Assembly (NCBI GenBank): GCA_964016885.1 | Contig: OZ024743.1 | Location: forward strand, 211,482,001 to 211,546,000 | Direction of reading: 5' to 3' | DNA from: Eledone cirrhosa | Taxonomy: Eukaryota | DNA: 64,000 nucleotides | Shown: positions 38,201-64,000 of the stretch, in pieces | Numbering within the stretch: the first letter of the stretch is position 1 | Layout: each line of letters begins with the position of its first letter | Translations under genes and position numbers: made by a program | The notes under the pieces: generated by a model | The model's input: only the letters and a program-made list of their open reading frames with translations | The model's database searches: none | Told to the model about the DNA's origin: nothing

Positions 38201-41200
38201 ATATGTGGTTAGAATATCTCAGGAAAGAATCACTATAGAGCTGTTCCTGGTAGAGCCGCTAATTCACTGAATTGAGAGATCATAGCTCTGATACTACAGA
38301 CATGTGGTTAGAATGTCTGAGGGAAGAATCACTAGAGAGCTGTTCCAGGTAGAGCCACTAATTCACTGAATTGAGAGATCACAGCTCTGATACTACAGAC
38401 ATGTGGTTAGAATGTCTGAGTAAAGAATCACTAGAGAGCTGTTCCAGGTAGAGCCACTAATTCACTGAATTGAGAGATCACAGCTCTGATATTACAGACA
38501 TGTTGTTAGAATGTCTCAGGAAAGAATCACTAGAGAGCTGTTCCAGGTAGAGCCACTAATTCACTGAATTGAGAGATCACAGCTCTGATATTACAGACAT
38601 GTGGTTAGAATGTCTGAGTAAAGAATCACTGGAGAGCTGTTCCAGGTAGAGCCACTAATTCACTGAATTGAGAGATCACAGCTCTGATATTACAGACATG
38701 TGGTTAGAATGTCTCAGGAAAGAATCACTAGAGAGCTGTTTCAGGTAGAGCAACTCATTCACTGAATTGAGAGATCACTGCTCTGATATTACAGACATGT
38801 GGTTAGAATGTCTGAGGAAAGAATCACTAGCGAGCTGTACAGATAGAGCCGCTAATTCAATGAATTGAGCGATCATTGCTCTGATACTACAGACATGTGG
38901 TTAGAATGTCTGAGGAAAGAATCATTAGAGAGCTGTTCCAGGTAGAGCCACTAATTCACTGAATTGAGAGATCATGGCTCTGATACTACAGACGTGTGGT
39001 TAGAATGTCTGAGGAAAGAATCACTGGAGAGCTGTTCCAGGTAGAGCCACTAATTCACTGAATTGAGAGATCACAGCTCTGATATTACAGACATGTGGTT
39101 AGAATGTCTGAGGAAAGAATCACTAGAGAGCTGTTCCAGGTAGAGCCACTAATTCACTGAATTGAGAAATAATAGCTCTGATATTACAGACATGTGGTTA
39201 GAATGTCTGAGGAAAGAATCACTAGAGAGCTGTTCCAGGTAGAGCCACTAATTCACTGAATTGAGAGATCACAGCTCTGATATTACAGACATGTGGTTAG
39301 AATGTCTCAGGAAAGAATCACTAGAGAGCTGTTCCAGGTAGAGCCACTAATTCACTGAATTGAGAGATCACAGCTCTGATATTACAGACATGTGGTTAGA
39401 ATGTCTGAGTAAAGAATCACTGGAGAGCTGTTCCAGGTAGAGCCACTAATTCACTGAATTGAGAGATCACAGCTCTGATATTACAGACATGTGGTTAGAA
39501 TGTCTGAGGAAAGAATCACAAGAGAGCTGTTTCAGGTAGAGCCACTAATTCACTGAATTGAGAGATCACAGCTCTGATATTACAGACATATGGTTAGAAT
39601 GTCTGAGGAAAGAATCACTAGAGAGCTGTTCCAGGTAGAGCCGCTAATTCACTGAATTGCGAGATCATAGCTCTGATACTACAGGCATGGGGTTAGAATG
39701 GCTGAGGAAAGAATCACTAGAGAGCTGTTCCAGGTAGAGCCACTAATTCACTGAATTGAGAGATCACAGCTCTGATACTACAGACATGTGGTTAGAATTT
39801 CTGAGGAAAGAATAACTAGAGAGCTGTTCCAGGTAGAGCCACTAATACACCGAATTGAGAGATCATAGCTCTGATACTACAGACATGTGGTTAGAATGTC
39901 TGAGGAAAGAATCACTAGAGAGCTGTTCCAGGTAGAGCCACTAATTCACTGAATTGAGAGATCATAGCTCTGATACTACAGACATGTGGTTAGAATGTCT
40001 GAGGAAAGAATCACTGGAGAGCTGTTCCAGGTAGAGCCATTAATTCACTGAATTGAGAGATCACAGCTCTGATATTACAGACATGTGGTTAGAATGTCTG
40101 AGGAAAGAATCACTGGAGAGCTGTTCCATGTAGAGCCACTAATTCACTGAATTGAGAGATCACAGCTCTGATATTACAGACATGTGGTTAGAATGTCTGA
40201 GGAAAGTATCACTAGAGAGCTGTTCCAGGTAGAGCCACTAATTCACTGAATTGAGAAATAATAGCTCTGATATTACAGACATGTGGTTAGAATGTCTGAG
40301 GAAAGAATCATTGGAGAGCTGTTCCAGGTAGAGCCACTAATTCACTGAATTGAGAGATCACAGCTCTGATATTACAGATATGTGGTTAGAATGTCTCAGG
40401 AAAGAATCACTATAGAGGTGTTCCTGGTAGACCCGCTAATTCACTGAATTGAGAGATCATAGCTCTGATACTACAGACATGTGGTTAGAATGTCTGAGGG
40501 AAGAATCACTAGAGAGCTGTTCCAGGTAGAGCCACTAATTCACTGAATTGAGAGATCACAGCTCTGATACTACAGACATGTGGTTAGAATGTCTGAGTAA
40601 AGAATCACTAGAGAGCTGTTCCAGGTAGAGCCACTAATTCATTGAATTGAGAGATAATAGCTCTGATATTACAGACATGTGGTTAGATTGTCTGAGGAAA
40701 GAATCACTAGAGAGCTTTTTCAGGTAGAGCCACTAATTCACTGAATTGAGAGATCACAGCTCTGATATTACTGACATGGAGTTAGAATGTCTGAGGAAAG
40801 AATCACTAGAGAGCTGTTCCAGGTAGAGCCACTAGTTCACTGAATTGAGATATCACAGCTCTGATATTACAGACATGTGGTTAGAATGTCTGAGGAAAGA
40901 ATCACTGGAGAGCTCTTCCAGGTAGAGCCACTAATTCACTGAATTGAGAGATCACAGCTCTGATCCAGGATTACTGGATATATGTCATATATACCAGGAT
41001 AACTGGATATATGTCATATATACTAGGATTACTGGATATATGTCATATGTACCAGGATTACTGGATATATGCCATATATACCAGGATTACTGGATATATC
41101 TCATATATACCAGGATTACTGGATATATTCTTATATATACCAGGAATACTGGATTTATGTCATATATACCAGGATTACTGGATATATGTCATATATAGCA

Positions 41201-42399
41201 GGATTACTGCATATATGTCATATATACAGGATTACTGGATATATGTCATATATACCAAGATTTTTGGATATATGTCATATATACCAGGATTACTGGATAT
41301 ATGTCATATATACCAGGATTACTGGATATATCTCATATATACCAGGATTACTGGATATATGTCATATATACCAGGATTACTGGATATATCTCATATGCCA
41401 GGATTACTGGATATATCTCATATACCAGGATTATTGGATATATCTCATATATCAGGATTACTGGATATATCTCATATACCAGGATTACTGGATATATATC
41501 ATATATACCAGGATTACTGGATATATGTCATATACCAGGATTACTAGATATATCTCATATATACCAGGATTACTGGATATATGACATACATACCAGGATT
41601 ATTAGATATATGTCATATATACCAGGATTACTGGATATATCTCATATATACCAGGATTACTGGATATATGTCATATATACCAGGATTATTGGATATATGT
41701 CATATATACCAGGATTACTGGATATGTGTCATATATACCAGGATTACTGGATATATGTCATATATACGAGGATTACTGGATATATGTCATATATACCAAG
41801 ATTATTGGATATATGTCATATATACCAGGATTACTGGATATATGTCATATTTACAATGAATAATGGATATTACTGGATATATGTCATATATACCAGGATT
41901 ACTGGATATATGTCATATATACCAGGATTACTGGATATAAGTCATATATACCTGGATTACTGGATATATGTCATATATACCAGGATTACTGGATATATGT
42001 CATATATACCAGGAACACTGGATATATGTCATATATACCAGGAGTACTGGATATATCTCATATATACCAGGATTACTGGATATATGTCATATATACCAGG
42101 ATTACTGGATATAACTCATATACCAGGATTACTGTATATATCTCATATACCAGGATTACTGGATATATATCATATATACCAGGATTACTGGATATATGTC
42201 ATATACCAGGATTACTGGATATATCTCATATATACCAGGATTACTGGATATATGACATATATACCAGGATTATTAGATATATGTCATATATACCAGGATT
42301 ATTGGATATATGTCATATATACGAGGATTACTGGATATATGTCGTATATACCAGGATTATTGGTTATATGTCATATATACCAGGATTACTGGATATATG

Positions 42400-45300
42400 T
42401 CATATATACCAGGATTACTGGATATATCTCATATATACCAGGATTACTGGATATATGTCATATATACCAGGATTACTGGATATATGTCATATATACCAGG
42501 ATTTCTGGATATATCTCATATATACCAGGATTACTGGATATATGTCATATATCCAGTAATACTAGTATATATGACATATATACCAGGATTACTGGATATA
42601 TGTCATATATACCAGGATTACTGGATATATGTCATATATAGCAGGATTACTGCATATATGTCATATATACAGGATTACTGGATATATGTCATATATACCA
42701 AGATTTTTGGATATATGTCATATATACCAGGATTACTGGATATATGTCATATATACTAGGATTACTGGATATATGTCATATATACAAGGTTTACTGAATA
42801 TATGTCATATATACCAGGATTACTGGATATATGTCATATATACCAGGATTACTAGATATATCTCATATAGACCAGGATTACTGGATATATGTCATATATA
42901 CCAGGATTACTGGATATATCTCATATATACCAGGATTACTGGATATATGTCATATATACCAAAATGACTGAATATAGCTCATATATACCAGGATTACTGG
43001 ATATATGTCATGTATATCAGGATTACTGGATATATCTCACATATACCAGGATTACTGGATATATGTCATATATACCAGGAATACTGGATATATGTCATAT
43101 ATACCAGGATTACTGGATATATCTCATATATACCAGGATTACTGGAGATATGTCATATATACCAGGAATACTGGATATATGTCATATATACCAGGATTAC
43201 TGGATATATCTCATATATACCAGGATTACTGGATATATGTCATATATACCAGGATTACTGGATATATGTCATATATACCTGGATTACTGGATATATGTCA
43301 TATATACAGGATTACTGGATATATGTCATATATACCAGGATTACTGGATATATGTCATATATACCAGGATTACAGGATATATCTCATATACCAGGATTAC
43401 TGGATATATCTCATATACCAGGATTACTGGATATATCTCATATACCAGGATTATTGGATATATATCATATATACCAGGATTACTGGATATATGTCATATA
43501 TACCAGGATTACTGGTTATATGTCATACATACTAGGATTACTGGATATGTCATATATACCAGGATTACTGGATATATGTCATATATACCAGGATTACTGG
43601 ATATATGTCATATATACCAGGATTACTGGATATATGTCATATATACCAGGATTACTGGATATATGTCATATATACTTGGATTTTTGGATATATGTCATAT
43701 ATACCAGAATTACTGGATATATGTCATATATACCAGGATTACTGGATATATCTCACATATACTAGGATTACTGGATTTATGTCATATATACCAGGAATAC
43801 TCGATATATGTCATATATACCAGGATTACTGGATATATCTCATATATACCAGGATTACTGGATATATGTCATATATACCATGAATACTGGATATATGTCA
43901 TATAGACCAGGATTACTGGATATATGTCATATATACCAGGATTACTAGATATATGTCATATATACAAGGATTACTGGATATATGTCATATATACCAGGAT
44001 TACTGGATATATGTCATATATACCAGAATTACTGGATATATGTCATATATACCAGGAATACTGGATATATGTCATATATACCAGGATTACTGGATATATC
44101 TCATATATACCAGGATTACTGGATATATGTCATATATACCAGGATTAATGAATATATGTCATATATACTAGGATTACTGGATATGTCATATATACCAGGA
44201 TTACTGGATATATGTCATATATTCTAGGATTACTGGATATGTCATATATACCAGGATTACAGGATATATGTCATATATACCAGGATTACTGGATATATGT
44301 CATATATACTAGGATTACTGGATATATCTGATATATACCAGGATTACTGGATATATGTCATATATAACAGGATTACTGGATATAAGTCATATATACCAGG
44401 ATTACTGGATATATCTCATATATACCAGGATTACTGGATATATGTCATATATACCAGGATTACTGGATATATGTCATATATACCAGGAATACTGGATATA
44501 TGTCGTATATACCAGGATTACTGGATATATGTCATATATACCAGGATTACTGGATATATGTCATATATACCTGGATTACTGATATATGTCATATATACCA
44601 GGATTACTGAATATATGTTATATATACCAGGAATACTGGATATATGTCATATATAACAGGATTACTGGATATGTCTCATATATAGAAGGATTACTGGATA
44701 TATGTCATATATACCAGGATTACTGGATATATCTCATATACCAGGATTACTGGATATATCTCATATACCAGGATTACTGGATATATATCATATATACCAG
44801 GATTACTGGATATATGTCATATACCAGGATTACTGGATATATCTCAGATATACCAGAATTACTGGATATATGACATATATACCAGGATTATTAGCTATAT
44901 GTCATATAAACCAGGATTACTGGATATGTCATATATACCAGGATTACTGGATATATGTCATATATACTAGGATTACTGGATATGTCATATATACCAGGAT
45001 TACTGGATATATGTCATATATACCAGGATTACTGGATATATGTCATATATCCAGTAATCCTAGTATATATGACATATATACCAGGATTTCTGGATATATG
45101 TCATATATCCAGTAATCCTAGTATATATGACATATATACCAGGATTACTGGATATATGTCATATACCAGGATTACTGGATATATCTCAGATATACCAGGA
45201 TTACTGGATATATGTCATATATACCAGGATTAGTGGATATATGTCATATACACCAGGATTACTGGATATATCTCATACATACCAGGATTAATGGATATAT

Positions 45301-48300
45301 GTCATATATACCAGGATTACTGGATATATGTCATATATTCCAAGATTACTGGATATATCTCATATAAACCAGGATTACTGGATATGTGTCATATATACCA
45401 GGATTACTGGATATATGTCATATATACCAGGATTAGTGGATATATGTCATATATACCAGGATTACTGGATATATCTCATACATACCAGGATTACTGGATA
45501 TATGTCATATATACCAGGATTACTGGATATATGTCATATATACCAGGAATACTGGATATATGTCATATATACCAGGATTACTGGATATATGTCATATATA
45601 CCAGGATTACCGGATATATGTCATATATACCAGGATTACTGGATATATGTCATATAGACTAGGATTACTAGATATATGTCATATGTACCAGGATTACTGG
45701 ATATATGCCATATATACCAGGATTACTGGATATATCTCATATATACCAGGATTACTGGATATATTCTTATATATACCAAGAATACTGGATATATGTCATA
45801 TATACCAGGATTACTGGATATATGTCATATATACCAAGATTACTGGATATATGTCATATATACCAGGATTACTGGATATATCCCATATATACCAGGATTA
45901 CTGGATATATGTCATATATACCAAGAATACTCGATATATGTCATATATACCAGGATTACTGGATATATGTCATATATACCAAGATTACTGGATATATGTC
46001 ATATATACCAGGATTACTGGATATATCCCATATATACCAGGATTACTGGATATATGTCATATATACCAGGATTACTGGATATATGTCATATATACCAGGA
46101 TTTCTGGATATATCTCATATATACCAGGATTACTGGATATATGTCATATATCCAGTAATACTAGTATATATGACATATATACCAGGATTACTGGATATAT
46201 GTCATATATACCAGGATTACTGGATATATGTCATATATAGCAGGATTACTGCATATATGTCATATATACAGGATTACTGGATATATGTCATATATACCAA
46301 GATTTTTGGATATATGTCATATATACCAGGATTACTGGATATATGTCATATATACTAGGATTACTGGATATATGTCATATATACAAGGTTTACTGGATAT
46401 ATGTCATATATACCAGGATTACTGGATATATGTCATATATACCAGGATTACTAGATATATCTCATATAGACCAGGATTACTGGATATATGTCATATATAC
46501 CAGGATTACTGGATATATCTCATATATACCAGGATTACTGGATATATGTCATATATACCAAAATGACTGAATATAGCTCATATATACCAGGATTACTGGA
46601 TATATGTCATGTATATCAGGATTACTGGATATATCTCACATATACCAGGATTACTGGATATATGTCATATATACCAGGAATACTGGATATATGTCATATA
46701 TACCAGGATTACTGGATATATCTCATATATACCAGGATTACTGGAGATATGTCATATATACCAGGAATACTGGATATATGTCATATATACCAGGATTACT
46801 GGATATATCTCATATATACCAGGATTACTGGATATATGTCATATATACCAGGATTACTGGATATATGTCATATATACCTGGATTACTGGATATATGTCAT
46901 ATATACAGGATTACTGGATATATGTCATATATACCAGGATTACTGGATATATATCATATATACCAGGATTACAGGATATATCTCATATACCAGGATTACT
47001 GGATATATCTCATATACCAGGATTACTGGATATATCTCATATACCAGGATTATTGGATATATATCATATATACCAGGATTACTGGATATATGTCATATAT
47101 ACCAGGATTACTGGTTATATGTCATACATACTAGGATTACTGGATATGTCATATATACCAGGATTACTGGATATATGTCATATATACCAGGATTACTGGA
47201 TATATGTCATATATACCAGGATTACTGGATATATGTCATATATACCAGGATTACTGGATATATGTCATATATACTTGGATTACTTGATATATGTCATATA
47301 TACCAGAATTACTGGATATATGTCATATATACCAGGATTACTGGATATATCTCACATATACCAGGATTACTGGATATATGTCATATATACCAGGAATACT
47401 GGATATATGTCATATATACCAGGATTACTGGATATATCTCATATATACCAGGATTACTGGATATATGTCATATATACCATGAATACTGGATATATGTGAT
47501 ATAGACCAGGATTACTGGATATATGTCATATATACCAGGATTACTAGATATATGTCATATATACAAGGATTACTGGATATATGTCATATATACCAGGATT
47601 ACTGGATATATGTCATATATACCAGAATTACTGGATATATGTCATATATACCAGGAATACTGGATATATGTCATATATACCAGGATTACTGGATATGTCT
47701 CATATATACCAGGAATACTGGTTATATGTCATATATACCAGGATTACTGGATATGTCTCATATATAGCAGGATTACTGGATATATCTCATATACCAGGAT
47801 TACTGGATATATGTCATATATACTAGGATTACTGGATATATCTGATATATACCAGGATTACTGGATATATGTCATATATAACAGGATTACTGGATATAAG
47901 TCATATATACCAGGATTACTGGATATATCTCATATATACCAGGATTACTGGATATATGTCATATATACCAGGATTACTGGATATATGTTATATATACCAG
48001 GAATACTGGATATATGTCGTATATACCAGGATTACTGGATATATGTCATATATACCAGGATTACTGGATATATGTCATATATACCTGGATTACTGATATA
48101 TGTCATATATACCAGGATTACTGAATATATGTTATATATACCAGGAATACTGGATATATGTCATATATAACAGGATTACTGGATATGTCTCATATATAGA
48201 AGCATTACTGGATATATGTCATATATACCAGGATTACTGGATATATCTCATATACCAGGATTACTGGATATATCTCATATACCAGAATTACTGGATATAT

Positions 48301-49300
48301 CTCATATACCAGGATTACTGGATATATATCATATATACCAGGATTACTGGATATATGTCATATACCAGGATTACTGGATATATCTCAGATATACCAGAAT
48401 TACTGGATATATGACATATATACCAGGATTACTGGATATGTCATATATACCAGGATTACTGGATATATGTCATATATACTAGGATTACTGGATATGTCAT
48501 ATATACCAGGATTACTGGATATATGTCATATATACCAGGATTACTGGATATATGTCATATATCCAGTAATCCTAGTATATATGACATATATACCAGGATT
48601 TCTGGATATATGTCATATATCCAGCAATCCTAGTATATATGACATATATACCAGGATTACTGGATATATGTCATATACCAGGATTACTGGATATATCTCA
48701 GATATACCAGGATTACTGGATATATGTCATATATACCAGGATTAGTGGATATATGTCATATACACCAGGATTACTGGATATATCTCATACATACCAGGAT
48801 TAATGGATATATGTCATATATACCAGGATTACTGGATATATGTCATATATTCCAAGATTACTGGATATATCTCATATAAACCAGGATTACTGGATATGTG
48901 TCATATATACCAGGATTACTGGATATATGTCATATATACCAGGATTAGTGGATATATGTCATATATACCAGGATTACTGGATATATCTCATACATACCAG
49001 GATTACTGGATATATGTCATATATACCAGGATTACTGGATATATGTCATATATACCAGGAATACTGGATATATGTCATATATACCAGGATTACTGGATAT
49101 ATGTCATATATACCAGGATTACCGGATATATGTCATATATACCAGGATTACTGGATATATGTCATATAGACTAGGATTACTAGATATATGTCATATGTAC
49201 CAGGATTACTGGATATATGCCATATATACCAGGATTACTGGATATATCTCATATATACCAGGATTACTGGATATCCTGGTATATATGAGATATATCCAGT
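42400..49300. repeat. About 3.5-3.6 kb HOR of the 29-mer (two copies); boundaries approximate
   Basis: AAAATGACTGAATATAGCTC at 42961 and 46560 (3599). Inverted monomer at 42553 and 46152 (3599). Inverted doublets at 45051 and 48563 (3512). The ORF track shows the same offsets (42889/46488 and 44955/48467). Confidence 0.88.
45007..45079. other. Near-perfect 73-bp palindrome (36-bp arms, 1-nt spacer) formed by a reverse-oriented 29-mer
   Basis: The left arm 45007-45042 ATATATGTCATATATACCAGGATTACTGGATATATG and right arm 45044-45079 CATATATCCAGTAATCCTAGTATATATGACATATAT are reverse complements except for one mismatch at 45062. Confidence 0.93.
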
Positions 49301-49303
49301 AAT
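49234..49303. other. Perfect 31-bp inverted repeat with an 8-nt spacer (fold-back)
   Basis: 49234-49264 ATTACTGGATATATCTCATATATACCAGGAT is the exact reverse complement of 49273-49303 ATCCTGGTATATATGAGATATATCCAGTAAT. Confidence 0.95.
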
Positions 49304-51399
49304 TACTGGATATATGTCATATATACCAAGATTACTGGATATATGTCATATATACCAGGATTACTGATATATCCCATATATACCAGGATTACTGGATATA
49401 TGTCATATATACCAGGAATACTGGATATATGTCATATATACCAGGATTACTGGATATATCTCATATATACCAGGATTACTGAATATATGTCATATATACC
49501 AGGAATGCTGTATATATGTCATATATACAAGGATTACTGGATATATGTCATATATACCAGGATTACTGGATATATCTCATATGCCAGGATTACTGGATAT
49601 ATCTCATATACCAGGATTATTGGATATATCTCATATATCAGGATTAATGGATATATCTCATATGCCAGGATTACTGGATATATATCATATATAGCAGGAT
49701 TACTGGATATATGTCATATACCAGGATTACTAGATATATCTCATATATACCAGGATTACTGGATATATGTCATATGTACCAGGATTACTGGATATATGTC
49801 ATATATACCTGGATTACTGGATATATGTCATATATACAGGATTACTGGATATATGTCATATATACCAGGATTACTGGATATATCTCATATATACCAGGAT
49901 TACTGGATATATGTCATATATACCAGGATTACAGGATATATCATATATACCAGGATTACTGGATATATGTCATATACCAGGATTACTGGATATATCTCAT
50001 ATATACCAAGATTACTGGATATATGACATATATACCAGGATTATTAGATATATGTCATATATACCAGGATTACTGGATATATGTAATATATACCAGGATT
50101 ACTGGATATATGTCATACATACTAGGATTACTGGATATGTCATATATACCAGGATTACTGGATATATGTCATATATACCAGATTACTGGATATATGTCAT
50201 ATATACCAGGATTACTGGATATATGTCATATATACCAGGATTACTGGATATATGTCATATATACTTGGATTTCTGGATATATGTCATATATACCAGAATT
50301 ACTGGATATATGTCATATATACCAGGATTACTGGATATATCTCACATATACTAGGATTACTGGATTTATGTCATATATACCAGGAATACTGGATATATGT
50401 CATATATACCAGGATTACTGGATATATCTCATATATACCAGGATTACTGGATATATGTCATATATACCATGAATACTGGATATATGTCATATAGACCAGG
50501 ATTACTGGATATATGTCATATATACCAGGATTACTAGATATATGTCATATATACAAGGATTACTGGATATATGTCATATATACCAGGATTACTGGATATA
50601 TGTCATATATACCAGAATTACTGGATATATGTCATATATACCAGGAATACTGGATATATGTCATATATACCAGGATTACTGGATATATCTCATATATACC
50701 AGGATTACTGGATATATGTCATATATACCAGGATTAATGAATATATGTCATATATACTAGGATTACTGGATATGTCATATATACCAGGATTACTGGATAT
50801 ATGTCATATATTCTAGGATTACTGGATATGTCATATATACCAGGATTACAGGATATATGTCATATATACCAGGATTACTGGATATATGTCATATATACTA
50901 GGATTACTGGATATATCTGATATATACCAGAATTACTGGATATATGTCATATATAACAGGATTACTGGATATAAGTCATATATACCAGGATTACTGGATA
51001 TATCTCATATATACCAGGATTACTGGATATATGTCATATATACCAGGATTACTGGATATATGTTATATATACCAGGAATACTGGATATATGTCGTATATA
51101 CCAGGATTACTGTATATATGTCATATATACCAGGATTACTGGATATATGTCATATATACCTGGATTACTGATATATGTCATATATACCAGGATTACTGAA
51201 TATATGTTATATATACCAGGAATACTGGATATATGTCATATATAAGAGGATTACTGGATATGTCTCATATATAGAAGGATTACTGGATATATGTCATATA
51301 TACCAGGATTACTGGATATATCTCATATACCAGGATTACTGGATATATCTCATATACCAGAATTACTGGATATATCTCATATACCAGGATTACTGGATA

Positions 51400-54300
51400 T
51401 ATATCATATATACCAGGATTACTGGATATATGTCATATATCCAGTAATCCTAGTATATATGACATATATACCAGGATTTCTGGATATATGTCATATATCC
51501 AGTAATCCTAGTATATATGACATATATACCAGGATTACTGGATATATGTCATATACCAGGATTACTGGATATATCTCAGATATACTAGGATTACTGGATA
51601 TATGTCATATATACCAGGATTAGTGGATATATGTCATATACACCAGGATTACTGGATATATCTCATACATACCAGGATTACTGGATATATGTCATATATA
51701 CCAGAATTACTGGATATATGTCATATATACCAGGATTACTGGATATATCTCATATATACCAGGATTACTGGATATATGTCATATATACCAGGTTTACTGG
51801 ATATATGTCATATATACCAGGATTAGTGGATATATGTCATATATATCAGGATTACTGGATATATTCATATATACCAGGATTACTGGATATATTCTTATAT
51901 ATACCAAGAATACTGGATATATGTCATATATACCAGGATTACTGGATATATGTCATTTATACCAAGATTACTGGATATATGTCATATATACCAGGATTAC
52001 TGGATATATCCCATATATACCAGGATTACTGGATATATGTCATATATACCAGGAATACTGGATATATGTCATATATACCAGGATTACTGGATATATCTCA
52101 CATATACCAGGATTACTGGATATATGTCATATATACCAGGAATACTGGAATATGTCATATATACCAGGATTACTGGATATATCTCATATATACCAGGATT
52201 ACTGAATATATGTCATATATAGCAGGAATTACTGTATATATGTCATATATACCAGGATTACTGGATATATGTCATATATACCAGGATTACTGGATATATC
52301 TCATATGCCAGGATTACTGGATATATCTCATATACCAGGATTATTGGATATATCTCATATATCAGGATTAATGGATATATCTCATATACCAGGATTACTG
52401 GATATATATCATATATACCAGGATTACTGGATATATGTCATATACCAGGATTACTAGATATATCTCATATATACCAGGATTACTGGATATATGTCATATG
52501 TACCAGGATTACTGGATATATGTCATATATACCAGGATTACTGGATATATCTCATATATACCAGGATTACTGGATATATGTCATATATACCAGGATTACA
52601 GGATATATCTCATATACCAGGATTACTGGATATATCTCATATACCAGGATTACTGGATATATCTCATATACCAGGATTACTGGATATATATCATATATAC
52701 CAGGATTACTGGATATATGTCATATACCAGGATTACTGGATATATCTCATATATACCAAGATTACTGGATATATGACATATATACCAGGATTATTAGATA
52801 TATGTCATATATACCAGGATTACTGGATATATGTAATATATACCAGGATTACTGGATATATGTCATACATACTAGGATTACTGGATATGTCATATATACC
52901 AGGATTACTGGATATATGTCATATATACCAGGATTACTGGATATATGTCATATATACCAGGATTACTGGATATATGTCATATATACCAGGATTACTGGAT
53001 ATATGTCATATATACTTGGATTACTTGATATATGTCATATATACCAGAATTACTGGATATATGTCATATATACCAGGATTACTGGATATATCTCACATAT
53101 ACCAGGATTACTGGATATATGTCATATATACCAGGAATACTGGATATATGTCATATATACCAGGATTACTGGATATATCTCATATATACCAGGATTACTG
53201 GATATATGTCATATATACCATGAATACTGGATATATGTCATATAGACCAGGAATACTGGATATATGTCATATATACCAGGATTACTAGATATATGTCATA
53301 TATACAAGGATTACTGGATATATGTCATATATACCAGGATTACTGGATATATGTCATATATACCAGAATTACTGGATATATGTCATATATACCAGGAATA
53401 CTGGATATATGTCATATATACCAGGATTACTGGATATATCTCATATATACCAGGATTACTGGATATATGTCATATATACCAGTATTAATGAATATATGTC
53501 ATATATACTAGGATTACTGGATATGTCATATATACCAGGATTACTGGATATATGTCATATATTCTAGGATTACTGGATATGTCATATATACCAGGATTAC
53601 AGGATATATGTCATATATACCAGGATTACTGGATATATGTCATATATACCAGGATTACTGGATATATCTCATATATACCAGGATTACTGGATATATGTCA
53701 TATATACCAGGTTTACTGGATATATGTCATATATACCAGGATTAGTGGATATATGTCATATATATCAGGATTACTGGATATATCTCATATATACCAGGAT
53801 TACTGGATATATTCTTATATATACCAAGAATACTGGATATATGTCATATATACCAGGATTACTGGATATATGTCATTTATACCAAGATTACTGGATATAT
53901 GTCATATATACCAGGATTACTGGATATATCCCATATATACCAGGATTACTGGATATATGTCATATATACCAGGAATACTGGATATATGTCATATATACCA
54001 GGATTACTGGATATATCTCACATATACCAGGATAACTGGATATATGTCATATATACCAGGAATACTGGATATATGTCATATATACCAGGATTACTGGATA
54101 TATCTCATATATACCAGGATTACTGAATATATGTCATATATAGCAGGAATACTGTATATATGTCATATATACCAGGATTACTGGATATATGTCATATATA
54201 CCAGGATTACTGGATATATCTCATATGCCAGGATTACTGGATATATCTCATATACCAGGATTATTGGATATATCTCATATATCAGGATTAATGGATATAT

Positions 54301-57300
54301 CTCATATACCAGGATTACTGGATATATATCATATATACCAGGATTACTGGATATATGTCATATACCAGGATTACTAGATATATCTCATATATACAGGATT
54401 ACTGGATATATGTCATATGTACCAGGATTACTGGATATATGTCATATATACCAGGATTACTGGATATATCTCATATATACCAGGATTACTGGATATATGT
54501 CATATATACCAGGATTACAGGATATATCTCATATACCAGGATTACAGGATATATCTCATATACCAGGATTACTGGATATATCTCATATACCAGGATTACT
54601 GGATATATATCATATATACCAGGATTACTGGATATATGTCATATACCAGGATTACTGGATATATCTCATATATACCAAGATTACTGGATATATGACATAT
54701 ATACCAGGATTATTAGATATATGTCATATATACCAGGATTACTGGATATATGTAATATATACCAGGATTACTGGATATATGTCATACATACTAGGATTAC
54801 TGGATATGTCATATATACCAGGATTACTGGATATATGTCATATATACCAGGATTACTGGATATATGTCATATATACCAGGATTACTGGATATATGTCATA
54901 TATACCAGGATTACTGGATATATGTCATATATACTTGGATTACTTGATATATGTCATATATACCAGAATTACTGGATACATGTCATATATACCAGGATTA
55001 CTGGATATATCTCACATATACCAGGATTACTGGATATATGTCATATATACCAGGAATACTGGATATATGTCATATATACCAGGATTACTGGATATATCTC
55101 ATATATACCAGGATTACTGGATATATGTCATATATACCATGAATACTGGATATATGTGATATAGACCAGGATTACTGGATATATGTCATATATACCAGGA
55201 TTACTAGATATATGTCATATATACAAGGATTACTGGATATATGTCATATATACCAGGATTACTGGATATATGTCATATATACCAGAATTACTGGATATAT
55301 GTCATATATACCAGGAATACTGGATGTATGTCATATATACCAGGATTACTGGATATATCTCATATATACCAGGATTACTGGATATATGTCATATATACCA
55401 GGATTAATGAATATATGTCATATATACTAGGATTACTGGATATGTCATATATACCAGGATTACTGGATATATGTCATATATTCTAGGATTACTGGATATG
55501 TCATATATACCAGGATTACAGGATATATGTCATATATACCAGGATTACTGGATATATGTCATATATACTAGGATTACTGGATATATCTGATATATACCAG
55601 GATTACTGGATATATGTCATATATGCCAGGATTACTGGATATATGTCATATATACCTGGATTACTGGATATATGTCATATATACCAGGATTACTGCATAT
55701 ATGTCATATATACCAGGAATACTGGTTATATGTCATATATACCAGGATTACTGGATATGTCTCATATATAGCAGGATTACTGGATATATCTCATATACCA
55801 GGATTACTGGATATATCTCATATACCAGGATTACTGGATATATATCATATATACCAGGATTACTGGATATATGTCATATACCAGGATTACTGGATATATC
55901 TCAGATATACCAGAATTACTGGATATATGACATATATACCAGGATAATTAGATATATGTCATATATACCAGGATTACTGGATATGTCATATATACCAGGA
56001 TTACTGGATATATGTCATATATACTAGGATTACTGGATATGTCATATATACCAGATTACTGGATATATGTCATATAAACCAGGATTACTGGATTATATGT
56101 CATATATCCAGTAATCCTAGTATATATGACATATATACCAGGATTTCTGGATATATGTCATATATCCAGTAATCCTAGTATATATGACATATATACCAGG
56201 ATTACTGGATATATGTCATATACCAGGATTACTGGATATATCTCAGATATACCAGGATTACTGGATATATGTCATATATACCAGGATTAGTGGATATATG
56301 TCATATACACCAGGATTACTGGATATATCTCATACATACCAGGATTACTGGATATATGTCATATATACCAGAATTACTGGATATATGTCATATATACCAG
56401 GATTACTGGATATATCTCATATATACCAGGATTACTGGATATATGTCATATATACCAGGTTTACTGGATATATGTCATATATACCAGGATTAGTGGATAT
56501 ATGTCATATATATCAGGATTACTGGATATATCTCATATATACCAGGATTACTGGATATATTCTTATATATACCAAGAATACTGGATATATGTCATATATA
56601 CCAGGATTACTGGATATATGTCATTTATACCAAGATTACTGGATATATGTCATATATACCAGGATTACTGGATATATCCCATATATACCAGGATTACTGG
56701 ATATATGTCATATATACCAGGAATACTGGATATATGTCATATATACCAGGATTACTGGATATATCTCACATATACCAGGATTACTGGATATATGTCATAT
56801 ATACCAGGAATACTGGATATATGTCATATATACCAGGATTACTGGATATATCTCATATATACCAGGATTACTGAATATATGTCATATATAGCAGGAATAC
56901 TGTATATATGTCATATATACCAGGATTACTGGATATATGTCATTATATACCAGGATTACTGGATATATCTCATATGCCAGATTACTGGATATATCTCATA
57001 TACCAGGATTATTGGATATATCTCATATATCAGGATTAATGGATATATCTCATATACCAGGATTACTGGATATATATCATATATACCAGGATTACTGGAT
57101 ATATGTCATATACCAGGATTACTGGATATATATCATATATACCAGGATTACTGGATATATGTCATATACCAGGATTACTGGATATATCTCATATATACCA
57201 AGATTACTGGATATATGACATATATACCAGGATTATTAGATATATGTCATATATACCAGGATTACTGGATATATGTAATATATACCAGGATTACTGGATA

Positions 57301-60300
57301 TATGTCATACATACTAGGATTACTGGATATGTCATATATACCAGGATTACTGGATATATGTCATATATACCAGGATTACTGGATATATGTCATATATACC
57401 AGGATTACTGGATATATGTCATATATACCAGGATTACTGGATATATGTCATATATACTTGGATTACTTGATATATGTCATATATACCAGAATTACTGGAT
57501 ATATGTCATATATACCAGGATTACTGGATATATCTCACATATACCAGGATTACTGGATATATGTCATATATACCAGGAATACTGGATATATGTCATATAT
57601 ACCAGGATTACTGGATATATCTCATATATACCAGGATTACTGGATATATGTCATATATACCATGAATACTGGATATATGTCATATAGACCAGGAATACTG
57701 GATATATGTCATATATACCAGGATTACTAGATATATGTCATATATACAAGGATTACTGGATATATGTCATATATACCAGGATTACTGGATATATGTCATA
57801 TATACCAGAATTACTGGATATATGTCATATATACCAGGAATACTGGATATATGTCATATATACCAGGATTACTGGATATATCTCATATATACCAGGATTA
57901 CTGGATATATGTCATATATACCAGTATTAATGAATATATGTCATATATACTAGGATTACTGGATATGTCATATATACCAGGATTACTGGATATATGTCAT
58001 ATATTCTAGGATTACTGGATATGTCATATATACCAGGATTACAGGATATATGTCATATATACCAGGATTACTGGATATATGTCATATATACCAGGATTAC
58101 TGGATATATCTCATATATACCAGGATTACTGGATATATGTCATATATACCAGGTTTACTGGATATATGTCATATATACCAGGATTAGTGGATATATGTCA
58201 TATATATCAGGATTACTGGATATATCTCATATATACCAGGATTACTGGATATATTCTTATATATACCAATAATACTGGATATATGTCATATATACCAGGA
58301 TTACTGGATATATGTCATTTATACCAAGATTACTGGATATATGTCATATATACCAGGATTACTGGATATATCCCATATATACCAGGATTACTGGATATAT
58401 GTCATATATACCAGGAATACTGGATATATGTCATATATACCAGGATTACTGGATATATCTCACATATACCAGGATAACTGGATATATGTCATATATACCA
58501 GGAATACTGGATATATGTCATATATACCAGGATTACTGGATATATCTCATATATACCAGGATTACTGAATATATGTCATATATAGCAGGAATACTGTATA
58601 TATGTCATATATACCAGGATTACTGGATATATGTCATATATACCAGGATTACTGGATATATCTCATATGCCAGGATTACTGGATATATCTCATATACCAG
58701 GATTATTGGATATATCTCATATATCAGGATTAATGGATATATCTCATATACCAGGATTACTGGATATATATCATATATACCAGGATTACTGGATATATGT
58801 CATATACCAGGATTACTAGATATATCTCATATATACCAGGATTACTGGATATATGTCATATGTACCAGGATTACTGGATATATGTCATATATACCAGGAT
58901 TACTGGATATATCTCATATATACCAGGATTACTGGATATATGTCATATATACCAGGATTACAGGATATATCTCATATACCAGGATTACTGGATATATCTC
59001 ATATACCAGGATTACTGGATATATCTCATATACCAGGATTACTGGATATATATCATATATACCAGGATTACTGGATATATGTCATATACCAGGATTACTG
59101 GATATATCTCATATATACCAAGATTACTGGATATATGACATATATACCAGGATTATTAGATATATGTCATATATACCAGGATTACTGGATATATGTAATA
59201 TATCCCAGGATTACTGGATATATGTCATACATACTAGGATTACTGGATATGTCATATATACCAGGATTACTGGATATATGTCATATATACCAGGATTACT
59301 GGATATATGTCATATATACCAGGATTACTGGATATATGTCATATATACCAGGATTACTGGATATATGTCATATATACTTGGATTACTTGATATATGTCAT
59401 ATATACCAGAATTACTGGATATATGTCATATATACCAGGATTACTGGATATATCTCACATATACCAGGATTACTGGATATATGTCATATATACCAGGAAT
59501 ACTGGATATATGTCATATATACCAGGATTACTGGATATATCTCATATATACCAGGATTACTGGATATATGTCATATATACCATGAATACTGGATATATGT
59601 CATATAGACCAGGATTACTGGATATATGTCATATATACCAGGATTACTAGATATATGTCATATATACAAGGATTACTGGATATATGTCATATATACCAGG
59701 ATTTCTGGATATATGTCATATATACCAGAATTACTGGATATATGTCATATATACCAGGAATACTGGATATATGTCATATATACCAGGATTACTGGATATA
59801 TCTCATATATACCAGGATTACTGGATATATGTCATATATACCAGTATTAATGAATATATGTCATATATACTAGGATTACTGGATATGTCATATATACCAG
59901 GATTACTGGATATATGTCATATATTCTAGGATTACTGGATATGTCATATATACCAGGATTACAGGATATATGTCATATATACCAGGATTACTGGATATAT
60001 GTCATATATACTAGGATTACTGGATATATCTGATATATACCAGGATTACTGGATATATATCATATATGCCAGGATTACTGGATATATGTCATATATACCT
60101 GGATTACTGGATATATGTCATATATACCAGGATTACTGAATATATGTCATATATACCAGGAATACTGGATATATGTCATATATACCAGGATTACTGGATA
60201 TGTCTCATATATAGCAGGATTACTGGATATATCTCATATACCAGGATTACTGGATATATCTCATATACCAGGATTACTGGATATATATCATATATACCAG

Positions 60301-60950
60301 GATTACTGGATATATGTCATATACCAGGATTACTGGATATATCTCAGATATACCAGAATTACTGGATATATGACATATATACCAGGATTATTAGATATAT
60401 GTCATATATACCAGGATTACTGGATATGTCATATATACCAGGATTACTGGATATATGTCATATATACTAGGATTACTGGATATGTCATATATACCAGGAT
60501 TACTGGATATATGTCATATAAACCAGGATTACTGGATATATGTCATATATCCAGTAATCCTAGTATATATGACATATATACCAGGATTTCTGGATATATG
60601 TCATATATCCAGTAATCCTAGTATATATGATATATATACCAGGATTACTGGATATATGTCATATACCAGGATTACTGGATATATCTCAGATATACCAGGA
60701 TTACTGGATATATGTCATATATACCAGGATTAGTGGATATATGTCATATACACCAGGATTACTGGATATATCTCATACATACCAGGATTACTGGATATAT
60801 GTCATATATACCAGAATTACTGGATATATGTCATATATACCAGGATTACTGGATATATCTCATATATACCAGGATTATTGGATATATGTCATATATACCA
60901 GGTTTACTGGATATATGTCATATATACCAGGATTAGTGGATATATGTCAT
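51400..60950. repeat. About 4.44 kb HOR of the 29-mer containing an internal ~1.92 kb duplication; boundaries approximate
   Basis: Equivalent ORF starts just after the CCATGAATAC marker fall at 53264, 55183, 57706 and 59626 (offsets 1919, 1920, 4442, 4443). Inverted doublets at 56108 and 60551 (4443). Confidence 0.85.
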
Positions 60951-63900
60951 ATATACCAGGATTACTGGATATATCTCATACATACCAGGATTACTGGATA
61001 TATGTCATATATACCAGGATTACTGGATATATGTCATATATACCAGGATTACTGGATATATGTCATATATACCAGGATTACTGGATATATGTCATATATA
61101 CCAGGATTACTGGATGTATGTCATATATACCAGGATTACTGGATATATGTCATATAGACTAGGATTACTGGATATATGTCATATGTACCAGGAAAACTGG
61201 ATATATGCCATATATACCAGGATTACTGGATATATCTCATATATACCAGGATTACTGGATATATTCTTATATATACCAAGAATACTGGATATATGTCATA
61301 TATACCAGGATTACTGGATATATGTCATATATACCAAGATTACTGGATATATGTCATATATACCAGGATTACTGGATATATCCCATATATACCAGGATTA
61401 CTGGATATATGTCATATATACCAGGAATACTGGATATATGTCATATATACCAGGATTACTGGATATATCTCACATATACCAGGATTACTGGATATATGTC
61501 ATATATACCAGGAATACTGGATATATGTCATATATACCAGGATTACTGGATATATCTCATATATACCAGGATTACTGAATATATGTCATATATACCAGGA
61601 ATACTGTATATATGTCACATATACCAGGATTACTGGATATATGTCATATATACCAGGATTAATGGATATATCTCATATGCCAGGATTACTGGATATATCT
61701 CATATACCAGGATTATTGGATATATCTCATATATCAGGATTACTGGATATATCTCATATACCAGGATTACTGAATATATATCATATATACCAGGATTACT
61801 GGATATATGTCATATACCAGGATTACTAGATATATCTCATATATACCAGGATTACTGGATATATGACATACATACCAGGATTATTAGATATATGTCATAT
61901 ATACCAGGATTACTGGATATATGTCATATATACCAGGATTATTGGATATATGTCATATATACCAGGATTACTGGATATGTGTCATATATACCAGGATTAC
62001 TGGATATATGTCATATATACGAGGATTACTGGATATATGTCATATATACCAGGATTATTGGATATATGTCATATATACCAGGATTACTGGATATATGTCA
62101 TATATACAATGAATAATGGATATTACTGGATATATGTCATATATACCAGGATTACTGGATATATGTCATATACACCAGGATTACTGGATATAAGTCATAT
62201 ATACCTGGATTACTGGATAAATGTCATATATACCAGGATTACTGGATATATGTCATATATACCAGGAATACTGGATATATGTCATATATACCAGGAGTAC
62301 TGGATATATCTCATATATACCAGGATTACTGGATATATGTCATATATACCAGGATTACTGGATATATCTCATATACCAGGATTACTGGATATATCTCATA
62401 TACCAGGATTACTGGATATATATCATATATACCAGGATTACTGGATATATGTCATATACCAGGATTACTGGATATATCTCATATATACCAGGATTACTGG
62501 ATATATGACATATATACCAGGATTATTAGATATATGTCATATATACCAGGATTATTGGAGATATGTCATATATACGAGGATTACTGGATATATGTCATAT
62601 ATACCAGGATTATTGGATATATGTCATATATACCAGGATTACTGGATATATGTCATATATACCAGGATTACTGGATATATGTCATATATACCAGGATTAC
62701 TGGATATATCTCATATATACCAGGATTACTGGATATATGTCATATATACCAGGATTACTGGATATATGTCATATATACCAGGATTTCTGGATATATCTCA
62801 TATATACCAGGATTACTGGATATATGTCATATATCCAGTAATACTAGTATATATGACATATATACCAGGATTACTGGATATATGTCATATAGACCAGGAT
62901 TACTGGATATATGTCATATATAGCAGGATTACTGCGTATATGTCATATATACAGGATTACTGGATATATGTCATATATACCAAGATTTTTGGATATATGT
63001 CATATATACCAGGATTACTGGATATATATCATATATACTAGGATTACTGGATATATGTCATATATACAAGGTTTACTGGATATATGTCATATATACCAGG
63101 ATTACTGGATATATGTCATATATACCAGGATTACTAGATATATCTCATATAGACCAGGATTACTGGATATATGTCATATATACCAGGATTACTGGATATA
63201 TCTCATATATACCAGGATTACTGGATATATGCCATATATACCAAAATGACTGGATATAGCTCATATATACCAGGATTACTGGATATATGTCATGTATATC
63301 AGGATTACTGGATATATCTCACATATACCAGGATTACTGGATATATGTCATATATACCAGGAATACTGGATATATGTAATATATACCAGGATTACTGGAT
63401 ATATCTCATATATACCAGGATTACTGGATATATGTCATATATACCAGGAATACTGGATATATGTCATATATACCAGGATTACTGGATATATCTCATATAT
63501 ACCAGGATTACTGGATATATGTCATATATACCAGGATTACTGGATATATGTCATATATACCTGGATTACTGGATATATGTCATATATACAGGATTACTGG
63601 ATATATGTCATATATACCAGGATTACTGGATATATCTCATATATACCAGGATTACTGGATATATGTCATATATACCAGGATTACAGGATATATCTCATAT
63701 ACCAGGATTACTGGATATATCTCATATACCAGGATTACTGGATATATCTCATGTACCAGGATTACTGGATATATATCATATATACCAGGATTACTGGATA
63801 TATGTCATATACCAGGATTACTGGATATATCTCATATATACCAAGATTACTGGATATATGACATATATACCAGGATTATTAGATATATGTCATATATACC

Positions 63901-64000
63901 AGGATTACTGGATATATGTCATATATACCAGGATTACTGGATATATGTCATACATACTAGGATTACTGGATATGTCATATATACCAGGATTACTGGATAT

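What the first reader, a model, noticed from the sequence alone, without database searches (positions are those of the whole stretch)
42547..62865. Family of 13 reverse-oriented monomers that look like quasi-palindrome correction, amplified from one founder
Seen: in an otherwise unidirectional array, CCAGTAAT(C/A)CTAGTATATATGAC units start at 42553, 45051, 45109, 46152, 48563, 48621 (CCAGCAAT), 51441, 51499, 56108, 56166, 60551, 60609 and 62835. They preserve phase (28+30 = 2x29). They are not simple in-place flips: both dyad loops are swapped (GATTA to TAATC, GTC to GAC) while the flanks stay in forward register, so the unit is the reverse complement of the monomer just upstream. The result is a ~73-bp palindrome centred on the T of ATATATG-T-CATATAT. 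All 13 share a CTAG variant. Established: replication template switching at quasi-palindromes converts imperfect inverted repeats into more perfect ones. Inference: one template switch was propagated by HOR amplification, seeding the array with strong cruciform-prone sites every 1-5 kb.
Basis: partly seen in the sequence, partly recalled or inferred. Interest (0 to 1): 0.75.

Follow-up and report, generated by a model that had tools for sequence, protein, structure and literature searches.

The report
One reversed satellite unit, copied fiftyfold
In a long array of 29-base repeats, 50 single units read backwards; they likely descend from one DNA-copying slip at a small palindrome inside the repeat and were likely multiplied as passengers when the array duplicated, a known kind of mutation with no sign of a function.

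Summary
The 13 reversed units are real, at the stated coordinates. The family has 50 units at 39 sites in 111 kb of array. One founder is well supported: all 50 share junctions and loop bases, 49 of 50 carry CTAG, and a rare flank variant links two contexts.

Three claims need correcting:
- No unit (0 of 50) is the exact reverse complement of its upstream neighbour; the single-mismatch 73-bp palindrome exists at 2 of 13 window units.
- No copy has been corrected to a perfect palindrome.
- There is no fixed higher-order period.

The founder's template is unresolved: a perfect 33-nt match lies 2-3 units upstream at 17 of 39 sites.

This is an ordinary short-range template-switch scar, amplified passively. 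The scan has reported the same kind of thing in several other satellites of this genome. Raw reads were not examined.

The parts
40965..64000 (+). 29-bp AT-rich satellite array; the monomer has two dyads (CCAG-GATTA-CTGG and ATATATG-T-CATATAT). It continues about 88 kb past the window to an assembly gap
42546..42574 (-). reversed unit, single, flank class beta, TAATA sub-variant
45044..45072 (-). reversed unit, first of a doublet, flank class alpha; centre of a one-mismatch 73-bp palindrome at 45007-45079
45102..45130 (-). reversed unit, second of a doublet
46145..46173 (-). reversed unit, single, class beta, TAATA sub-variant
48556..48584 (-). reversed unit, first of a doublet; one-mismatch 73-bp palindrome at 48519-48591
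48614..48642 (-). reversed unit, second of a doublet, private CCAGC variant
51434..51462 (-). reversed unit, first of a doublet (left flank recombined)
51492..51520 (-). reversed unit, second of a doublet
56101..56129 (-). reversed unit, first of a doublet; the upstream unit has a 1-nt insertion
56159..56187 (-). reversed unit, second of a doublet
60544..60572 (-). reversed unit, first of a doublet
60602..60630 (-). reversed unit, second of a doublet
62828..62856 (-). reversed unit, single, class beta, TAATA sub-variant
44959..44985 (+). forward 27-bp CTAG unit, three units upstream; with the preceding bases it is a perfect 33-nt inverted match to the reversed unit (candidate template). Paralogues at 48471, 56016 and 60459
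49273..49303 (-). independent 14th inversion: a 31-nt exact reverse complement of 49234-49264 with an 8-nt spacer; 47 ancestral nt are replaced by 27; single copy in 111 kb
49234..49264 (+). template arm of the 14th inversion, carrying the CTC variant that was copied

Best explanation
The 50 reversed units likely descend from one short template switch, in which a polymerase likely left its template at the monomer's ATATATG-T-CATATAT dyad, copied about one unit of the opposite strand, and returned at the same dyad; the product was then likely carried along passively by irregular block duplications and exchanges. SHOWN: orientation, shared junctions, shared CTAG, T-then-A loops, flank sharing and the lack of a fixed period. 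INFERRED: the switch itself, the single origin and passive spread. UNRESOLVED: the template. My rough odds are a CTAG unit 2-3 places upstream 0.45; the adjacent unit, with one later change (this includes an inverted triplication) 0.35; an in-place flip plus T>A 0.15; other 0.05.
For: (1) All 50 have loops T then A, and 49 of 50 have CTAG; the one CAAG copy is one step from it. Forward CTAG units are 155 of 3852, so repeated independent capture is unlikely. (2) 24 of 27 units with the rare GATTTC variant sit 1-2 units upstream of a reversed unit, in both the beta singles and the doublets. (3) Within a flank class, window sites share ungapped blocks of up to 0.4-1.6 kb on the right. (4) A copy number of 50 is within the range of other complex markers: 19, 64, 81, 83, 259. 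(5) Flank diversity is not above controls: 9 left and 4 right classes for 39 sites, against 8 and 11 for a marker with 39 copies. (6) The 14th event shows inverted local copying in this same array. 8 of 9 other paralogues carry the un-inverted allele; the insert matches the adjacent upstream stretch with 0 mismatches, the deleted stretch with 2 at best, and a reversed-not-complemented control with 15. (7) Precedent: four-point types (PMC5453318) and 'many VNTRs evolving through template switching' (10.1101/2021.11.26.470150, passage).
Against: No pre-inversion allele of the founder site was identified, so the switch points cannot be placed. The adjacent upstream unit never carries CTAG (0 of 50). 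No perfect template lies within 6 units for 22 of 50 units. Between flank classes shared sequence falls to about 60 bp, which is what consensus similarity alone gives, so the single origin rests on the unit and on one linking variant. The 18-of-39 association with an upstream CTAG unit (background 12%) is one inherited lineage, not independent events. For the 14th event, 287 of 3852 units would match equally well. Raw reads were not examined.
Confidence: 0.78

Rival explanations
1. In-place microinversion. The 28-bp segment between CATATAT and ATATATG, itself a bulged hairpin, flipped where it stood (four-point type 1-3-2-4, or inversion of a spacer). The second loop was already A or became A later. 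Amplification followed as above.
For: The flipped segment is bounded by 7-bp inverted repeats (sequence). A-loop forward units are 100 of 3852 and CTAG units 155 of 3852. Type 1-3-2-4 was the commonest class, 45%, in the human-chimpanzee set (PMC5453318 passage).
Against: It needs CTAG and the A loop in one unit. Only 1 of 3852 forward units has both, and it is a private variant in an unrelated context. A-loop units are nearly always followed by the ATTATTAG unit, which never follows a reversed unit. T>A at that loop was 0 of 39, 0 of 63 and 0 of 76 recent substitutions under three settings.
Confidence: 0.13
2. Break repair rather than a fork switch. A cut near a hairpin was repaired by end-joining with stem-loop (snap-back) templated synthesis of the polymerase-theta type. 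The sequence product is the same; the trigger differs. This fits the 14th event best.
For: The 14th event is a 47-nt loss with a 27-nt inverted insert copied from the flank and 2-nt AT microhomology at both ends. Pol theta primes stem-loop synthesis from two terminal base pairs (PMC11292364, abstract). The 39-bp units share the same exit and re-entry register, and an interspersed-repeat fragment is inserted in the same GGAT/ATTA loop.
Against: Sequence alone cannot name the enzyme. The main family has both junctions in the long dyad and keeps phase. The AT dinucleotide is common in this monomer, so shared registers are partly expected.
Confidence: 0.2
3. Many independent or ongoing corrections at a hot quasi-palindrome, or selection for evenly spaced cruciform sites with a chromatin or centromere role.
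For: Hairpin energy at the junctions is stronger than native: median -23.6 and -21.8 kcal/mol (n=50 each) against -12.8 (n=400). Conserved inversion sites in Tribolium satellites have been proposed to be functional (PMC13081366, passages).
Against: Every copy has the same private variant. 0 of 50 are corrected. Four pre-chosen dyad-related substitutions are not enriched among recent changes: 4 observed against 1.8-3.5 expected, P 0.11-0.46. Fold-backs at the short dyad have 0 matches genome-wide. Spacing runs from 0.8 to 9.2 kb, and a deletion that removed a unit was itself copied four times. The 13-unit array on contig C24 has no reversed unit.
Confidence: 0.06
4. Sequencing or assembly artefact (fold-back chimeras).
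For: Palindromic AT-rich DNA is prone to such errors (own knowledge). The array ends in an assembly gap. No reads were laid here.
Against: A chimera would copy its neighbour exactly, whereas all 50 differ from it at the same base. Sub-variants (TAATA in 5 copies, CCATT in 2) follow flank lineages.
Confidence: 0.02

Closest known systems
Short-range template-switch mutations, four-point model, type 3-2-1-4 / 1-4-3-2 (PMC5453318, passages read; PMC7954356, passages read; 10.1101/2021.11.26.470150, passages read)
   Same: A short reverse-complement copy of nearby sequence creates an inverted repeat, in AT-rich DNA with pre-existing structure. The 14th event fits point for point. The 2022 preprint states that many VNTRs evolve this way.
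   Different: The great-ape and human-haplotype surveys filtered out masked or tandem repeats (passages). Here the product sits in a satellite, was multiplied to 50 copies, and at 29-33 nt is longer than the median 12-nt fragment reported. The founder's template cannot be fixed.
Quasi-palindrome correction of Ripley type (as described in PMC5453318, passages)
   Same: There is a pre-existing imperfect inverted repeat (the monomer is 6 edits from its own reverse complement), and the product is a much better palindrome.
   Different: The product is not perfect in any of 50 copies, and no later correction is seen.
Small inverted triplications, DUP/IN/DUP (PMC13334657, abstract and section 2.6 read)
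   Same: A forward-reverse-forward layout with short inverted-repeat junctions gives exactly the T-then-A loop pattern.
   Different: Reported sizes average about 150 bp per part with a 30-bp spacer; here it is one 29-bp unit with a 1-nt spacer. Neither neighbour shares CTAG. In a tandem array a net gain of two units cannot be told from a replacement.
Conserved, amplified inversion sites in Tribolium satellites (PMC13081366, PMC12581902, passages read)
   Same: A few stereotyped inversion junctions are present in many near-identical copies with predicted hairpins.
   Different: There, multi-kilobase subarrays change direction on many chromosomes. Here single monomers are reversed in one 111-kb array.

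Membership tests
Short-range template switch, type 3-2-1-4 (main family of 50) | Inserted piece is an exact reverse complement of nearby upstream sequence | tested here: inconclusive
   Adjacent unit: 0 of 50 exact. A perfect 33-nt match lies 2-3 units upstream for 17 units, one per site, of 39 sites; there is none within 6 units for 22 of 50 units.
Short-range template switch, type 3-2-1-4 (main family of 50) | Ancestral allele available to place switch points 1-4 | tested here: inconclusive
   The search for empty sites found no context joining a left and a right flank without the unit, apart from a larger deletion.
Short-range template switch, type 3-2-1-4 (main family of 50) | Event creates an inverted repeat | tested here: met
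   36-bp and 28-bp arm palindromes on either side of the unit.
Short-range template switch, type 3-2-1-4 (14th event) | Exact reverse-complement source upstream, ancestral allele known, control orientation fails | tested here: met
   0 mismatches over 31 nt upstream, 2 inside the deleted stretch, 15 for the reversed control; 8 of 9 other paralogues carry the un-inverted allele.
Ripley quasi-palindrome correction | Pre-existing imperfect inverted repeat | tested here: met
   Forward and reverse consensus differ by 6 edits; native 73-mers fold at a median of -12.8 kcal/mol.
Ripley quasi-palindrome correction | Arms become perfectly complementary across the copied tract | tested here: not met
   Mismatch at arm position 19 in 50 of 50; 0 copies with CTGG in the unit or CTAG in the upstream arm.
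Small inverted triplication (DUP/IN/DUP) | Both flanking copies identical to the inverted copy; net gain of two copies | tested here: inconclusive
   The loop pattern fits, but neither neighbour carries CTAG; a net gain cannot be measured in a tandem array without the ancestral allele.
Regular higher-order repeat (HOR) array | A fixed multi-monomer period | tested here: not met
   Best autocorrelation of derived monomer types is 4.7% (lag 167) over lags 2-399; blocks between sites differ in length.
Tribolium-type macro-dyad symmetry | Multi-kilobase inverted subarrays | tested here: not met
   Every satellite-derived reversed run in 111 kb is about one unit long.
Polymerase-theta templated insertion (14th event) | Deletion plus short inverted insert templated from the flank, with microhomology | tested here: met
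   47 nt replaced by 27, with AT at both ends.
Polymerase-theta templated insertion (14th event) | Dependence on polymerase theta | not testable with these tools
   Needs genetics.
Cruciform-extruding AT-rich palindrome | Extrusion under supercoiling | not testable with these tools
   Only single-strand folding energies were computed.

The most novel reading that the evidence does not exclude
Mismatch-licensed survival. The single CTAG change interrupts both palindromes that a reversed unit makes (arm positions 19 and 10), and this would be what let this lineage reach 50 copies. Perfect products, such as the single-copy 14th event with 31-bp perfect arms, would be purged. The GGAT/ATTA hairpin loop would be a recurrent cut site that seeds inversions, deletions and retroelement insertion. 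The array would then be a natural record of how satellite DNA filters palindromes by arm perfection.
Probability: 0.12. Interest if true: 0.55.

Novelty: new member of a known kind. Interest (0 to 1): 0.27.

Why it matters
As it stands, this is a tidy example of a known mutation class inside satellite DNA, where some published surveys filter such events out. It gives a lineage marker for reconstructing how this array grew. Fifty long, near-perfect palindromes with not one corrected copy is a mild bound on how often hairpin-templated correction happens in such heterochromatin-like DNA; the bound is not statistically significant. It would matter more if perfect palindromes proved to be selectively lost, or if the sites extrude cruciforms at a functional centromere. 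Neither is shown.

Tried and rejected
(1) Point-mutation drift: rejected; there are no intermediates between the forward and reverse classes.
(2) Reversed units as recombination hot spots: not supported; flank-class counts lie within those of 15 control markers. This is a rough test, sensitive to threshold and to marker age.
(3) General enrichment of dyad-perfecting substitutions: not found (small numbers, 39-76 events in 283-349 paralogous columns).
(4) CCAG>CTAG as a strong mutation hot spot: 1 of 39, 3 of 63 and 2 of 76 events, so no clear support.
(5) Other arrays as replicates: exact three-monomer matches occur only in this array (56) and in a 13-unit array on contig C24 (5), which has no reversed unit. 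The DNA search scored 40 of 209 candidates, so diverged arrays may be missed.
(6) Fold-backs at the short dyad: 0 matches.
(7) The forward unit with both CTAG and the A loop as a pre-inversion allele: rejected; its context is unrelated.
Read-level confirmation is open.
(9) Literature searches listed no paper on single reversed monomers amplified in this satellite. I saw listings only for most hits, and the library is partial, so this is not proof of absence. Fig. S2 of 10.1101/2021.11.26.470150 (VNTR template switches) is a preprint supplement I could not see; it may show the same pattern.
Full report
SETTING. The window is G000:C4:211,482,001-211,546,000 of a 3.0-Gb assembly; the contig is 379 Mb long. 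A 99-bp satellite (1-40964) abuts a 29-bp satellite (40965-64000). I fetched the next 200 kb. The 29-bp array runs on to an assembly gap, 111 kb in all and 3852 units; a third, GC-richer satellite lies beyond the gap. The only other copy found is a 13-unit array on contig C24. A cluster of three satellites at 56% of a chromosome-scale contig is compatible with a pericentromere; that is inference only.

OBSERVATION. A two-orientation Viterbi decomposition recovers all 13 units at the stated places and 50 in the whole array, at 39 sites of which 11 are doublets. Reversed units lie 1-2 edits from the reverse consensus and 6-8 from the forward one, with no intermediates. The two junction patterns match only in this array genome-wide (36 and 25 forward matches; controls 0).

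No unit is the exact reverse complement of its upstream neighbour: arm position 19 mismatches in 50 of 50, and only 13 of 50 (2 of 13 in the window) have that as the sole mismatch. Each unit also pairs with its downstream neighbour over 28 bp, with CTAG mismatching at position 10. Computed single-strand folding is a median of -23.6 and -21.8 kcal/mol at the two junctions, against -12.8 for 400 native 73-mers. There is no regular HOR: the best lag explains 4.7% of derived monomer types, and the array is a patchwork of duplicated blocks.

ONE FOUNDER. All 50 have T at the first loop and A at the second; 49 have CTAG and one has CAAG. In the window the 8 sites fall into two flank classes, three beta singles and five alpha doublets. 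Sites share up to 0.4-1.6 kb on the right within a class, but only about 60 bp between classes. The classes are tied by a rare variant: 24 of 27 GATTTC units lie 1-2 places upstream of a reversed unit, in both the beta singles and the doublets. Flank diversity (9 left and 4 right classes) and copy number are within the range of other markers. The units therefore behave like passengers, with no sign of a hot spot.

WHICH EVENT. Four histories give this sequence. (A) Fold-back on the adjacent unit, followed by one G>A in the copy or by loss of CTAG from the left arm. (A2) The same double switch returning one unit earlier, which is a small inverted triplication (PMC13334657, abstract and section 2.6; the lead came from an earlier scan note). 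It gives the same loops and keeps phase, so phase says nothing about replacement. (C) Copying from a forward CTAG unit 2-3 places upstream, which matches perfectly over 33 nt at 17 of 39 sites and needs no further change; these sites are one lineage. (B) An in-place flip of the 28-bp hairpin plus T>A. Only 1 of 3852 forward units has both CTAG and the A loop, and A-loop units have different neighbours.

RATES. In paralogous columns, a given new substitution occurred at 0.0016-0.0026 per site, and apparent returns to consensus at 0.057-0.076 per derived site, 23-35 times more often. Majority-based polarity makes the second figure an upper bound. Local exchange therefore turns flanks over quickly, which is why the founder's context is lost. 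My odds (C 0.45, A/A2 0.35, B 0.15) are judgement guided by these rates, not a fitted model. [quoted passage not shown]

NO ONGOING CORRECTION. A long palindrome with one mismatch is the textbook substrate for correction, yet 0 of 50 copies have CTGG in the unit or CTAG in the left arm. By hand: four private substitution lineages over 29 sites imply about 0.14 changes per site on the family's tree. That predicts 1-1.6 corrections if they ran at the direct-orientation return rate, so zero is not significant. Four pre-chosen dyad-related substitutions are not enriched (P 0.11-0.46).

THE MISSED 14TH EVENT. At 49273-49303 a 31-nt stretch is the exact reverse complement of 49234-49264, with an 8-nt spacer. 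It occurs once in 111 kb. Of 10 places sharing its left anchor, one is the event, 8 carry the un-inverted allele and one has recombined. Against the paralogue at 45707, 47 nt are replaced by 27 (net -20), with AT microhomology at both ends. The source order is 3-2-1-4; the best match inside the deleted stretch has 2 mismatches and the reversed control 15. 287 of 3852 units would also match exactly, so the adjacent source is favoured at about 13 to 1, not proven. This event, not the 13, is the clean evidence for fold-back copying here. It fits a fork switch or polymerase-theta stem-loop insertion equally well (PMC11292364, abstract and opening paragraphs).

PRECEDENT. Short template switches are established (PMC5453318, PMC7954356; passages), and were noted as common in VNTRs but filtered out (10.1101/2021.11.26.470150, passages; its Fig. 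S2 not seen). Amplified stereotyped inversion sites are described in Tribolium satellites (PMC13081366, PMC12581902; passages). Mixed-orientation arrays of short dyad-bearing monomers are described in Chionographis (10.1101/2022.11.23.516916; passages). Unreviewed notes of this scan describe like events in several other satellites of this genome; I did not test them and they are not support. Nothing was on file near this place.

VERDICT. The feature is real and larger than reported, a single founder is likely, the mechanism class is known, the exact template is unresolved, and there is no evidence of function or of continuing correction. New member of a known kind; interest 0.27.

Noticed in passing
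L012-L015 region, first at extended position 100276 (about C4:211,582,276); 8 copies up to extended position 132886: A roughly 100-bp non-satellite fragment is inserted in the GGAT/ATTA loop and was amplified eightfold with the array. A similar sequence lies in reverse orientation near the start of L033, so it is an interspersed repeat. From recall only, it resembles an octopod SINE; no call tested that.
   Followed up: partly
window 41846-41884 and 62099-62137; 19 copies array-wide: 39-bp units read as a 10-bp duplication or a 19-bp deletion at AT microhomology. They have the same exit and re-entry register as the 14th inversion, hinting at a preferred break or slip path around the short dyad.
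   Followed up: partly
L032:9060-9440 (contig C24): A lone 13-unit array of the same monomer in unique DNA, including the 27-bp and CTC variants; it ends in a partial unit with CTAG. It could be a seed or a dispersed copy.
   Followed up: partly
window 40964/40965: The 99-bp satellite joins the 29-bp satellite directly, with no intervening sequence, at the start of the CCAG dyad.
   Followed up: no
window 1-40964: A 99-bp satellite of about 414 copies, with 94% neighbour matches, on one strand throughout the window.
   Followed up: no
L017:7955 onward through L028: After a 200-N gap a third satellite (about 48% G+C, longer and with several subunit variants) runs for at least 110 kb.
   Followed up: no
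whole 29-bp array: T>A at the centres of both dyad loops gives two common old variants (288 and 112 units, the latter counting forward units only), but neither is enriched among recent changes.
   Followed up: partly
paralogous columns across the array: Apparent returns to consensus are 23-35 times more frequent per site than a given new substitution, suggesting active short-tract exchange; polarity is uncertain.
   Followed up: partly
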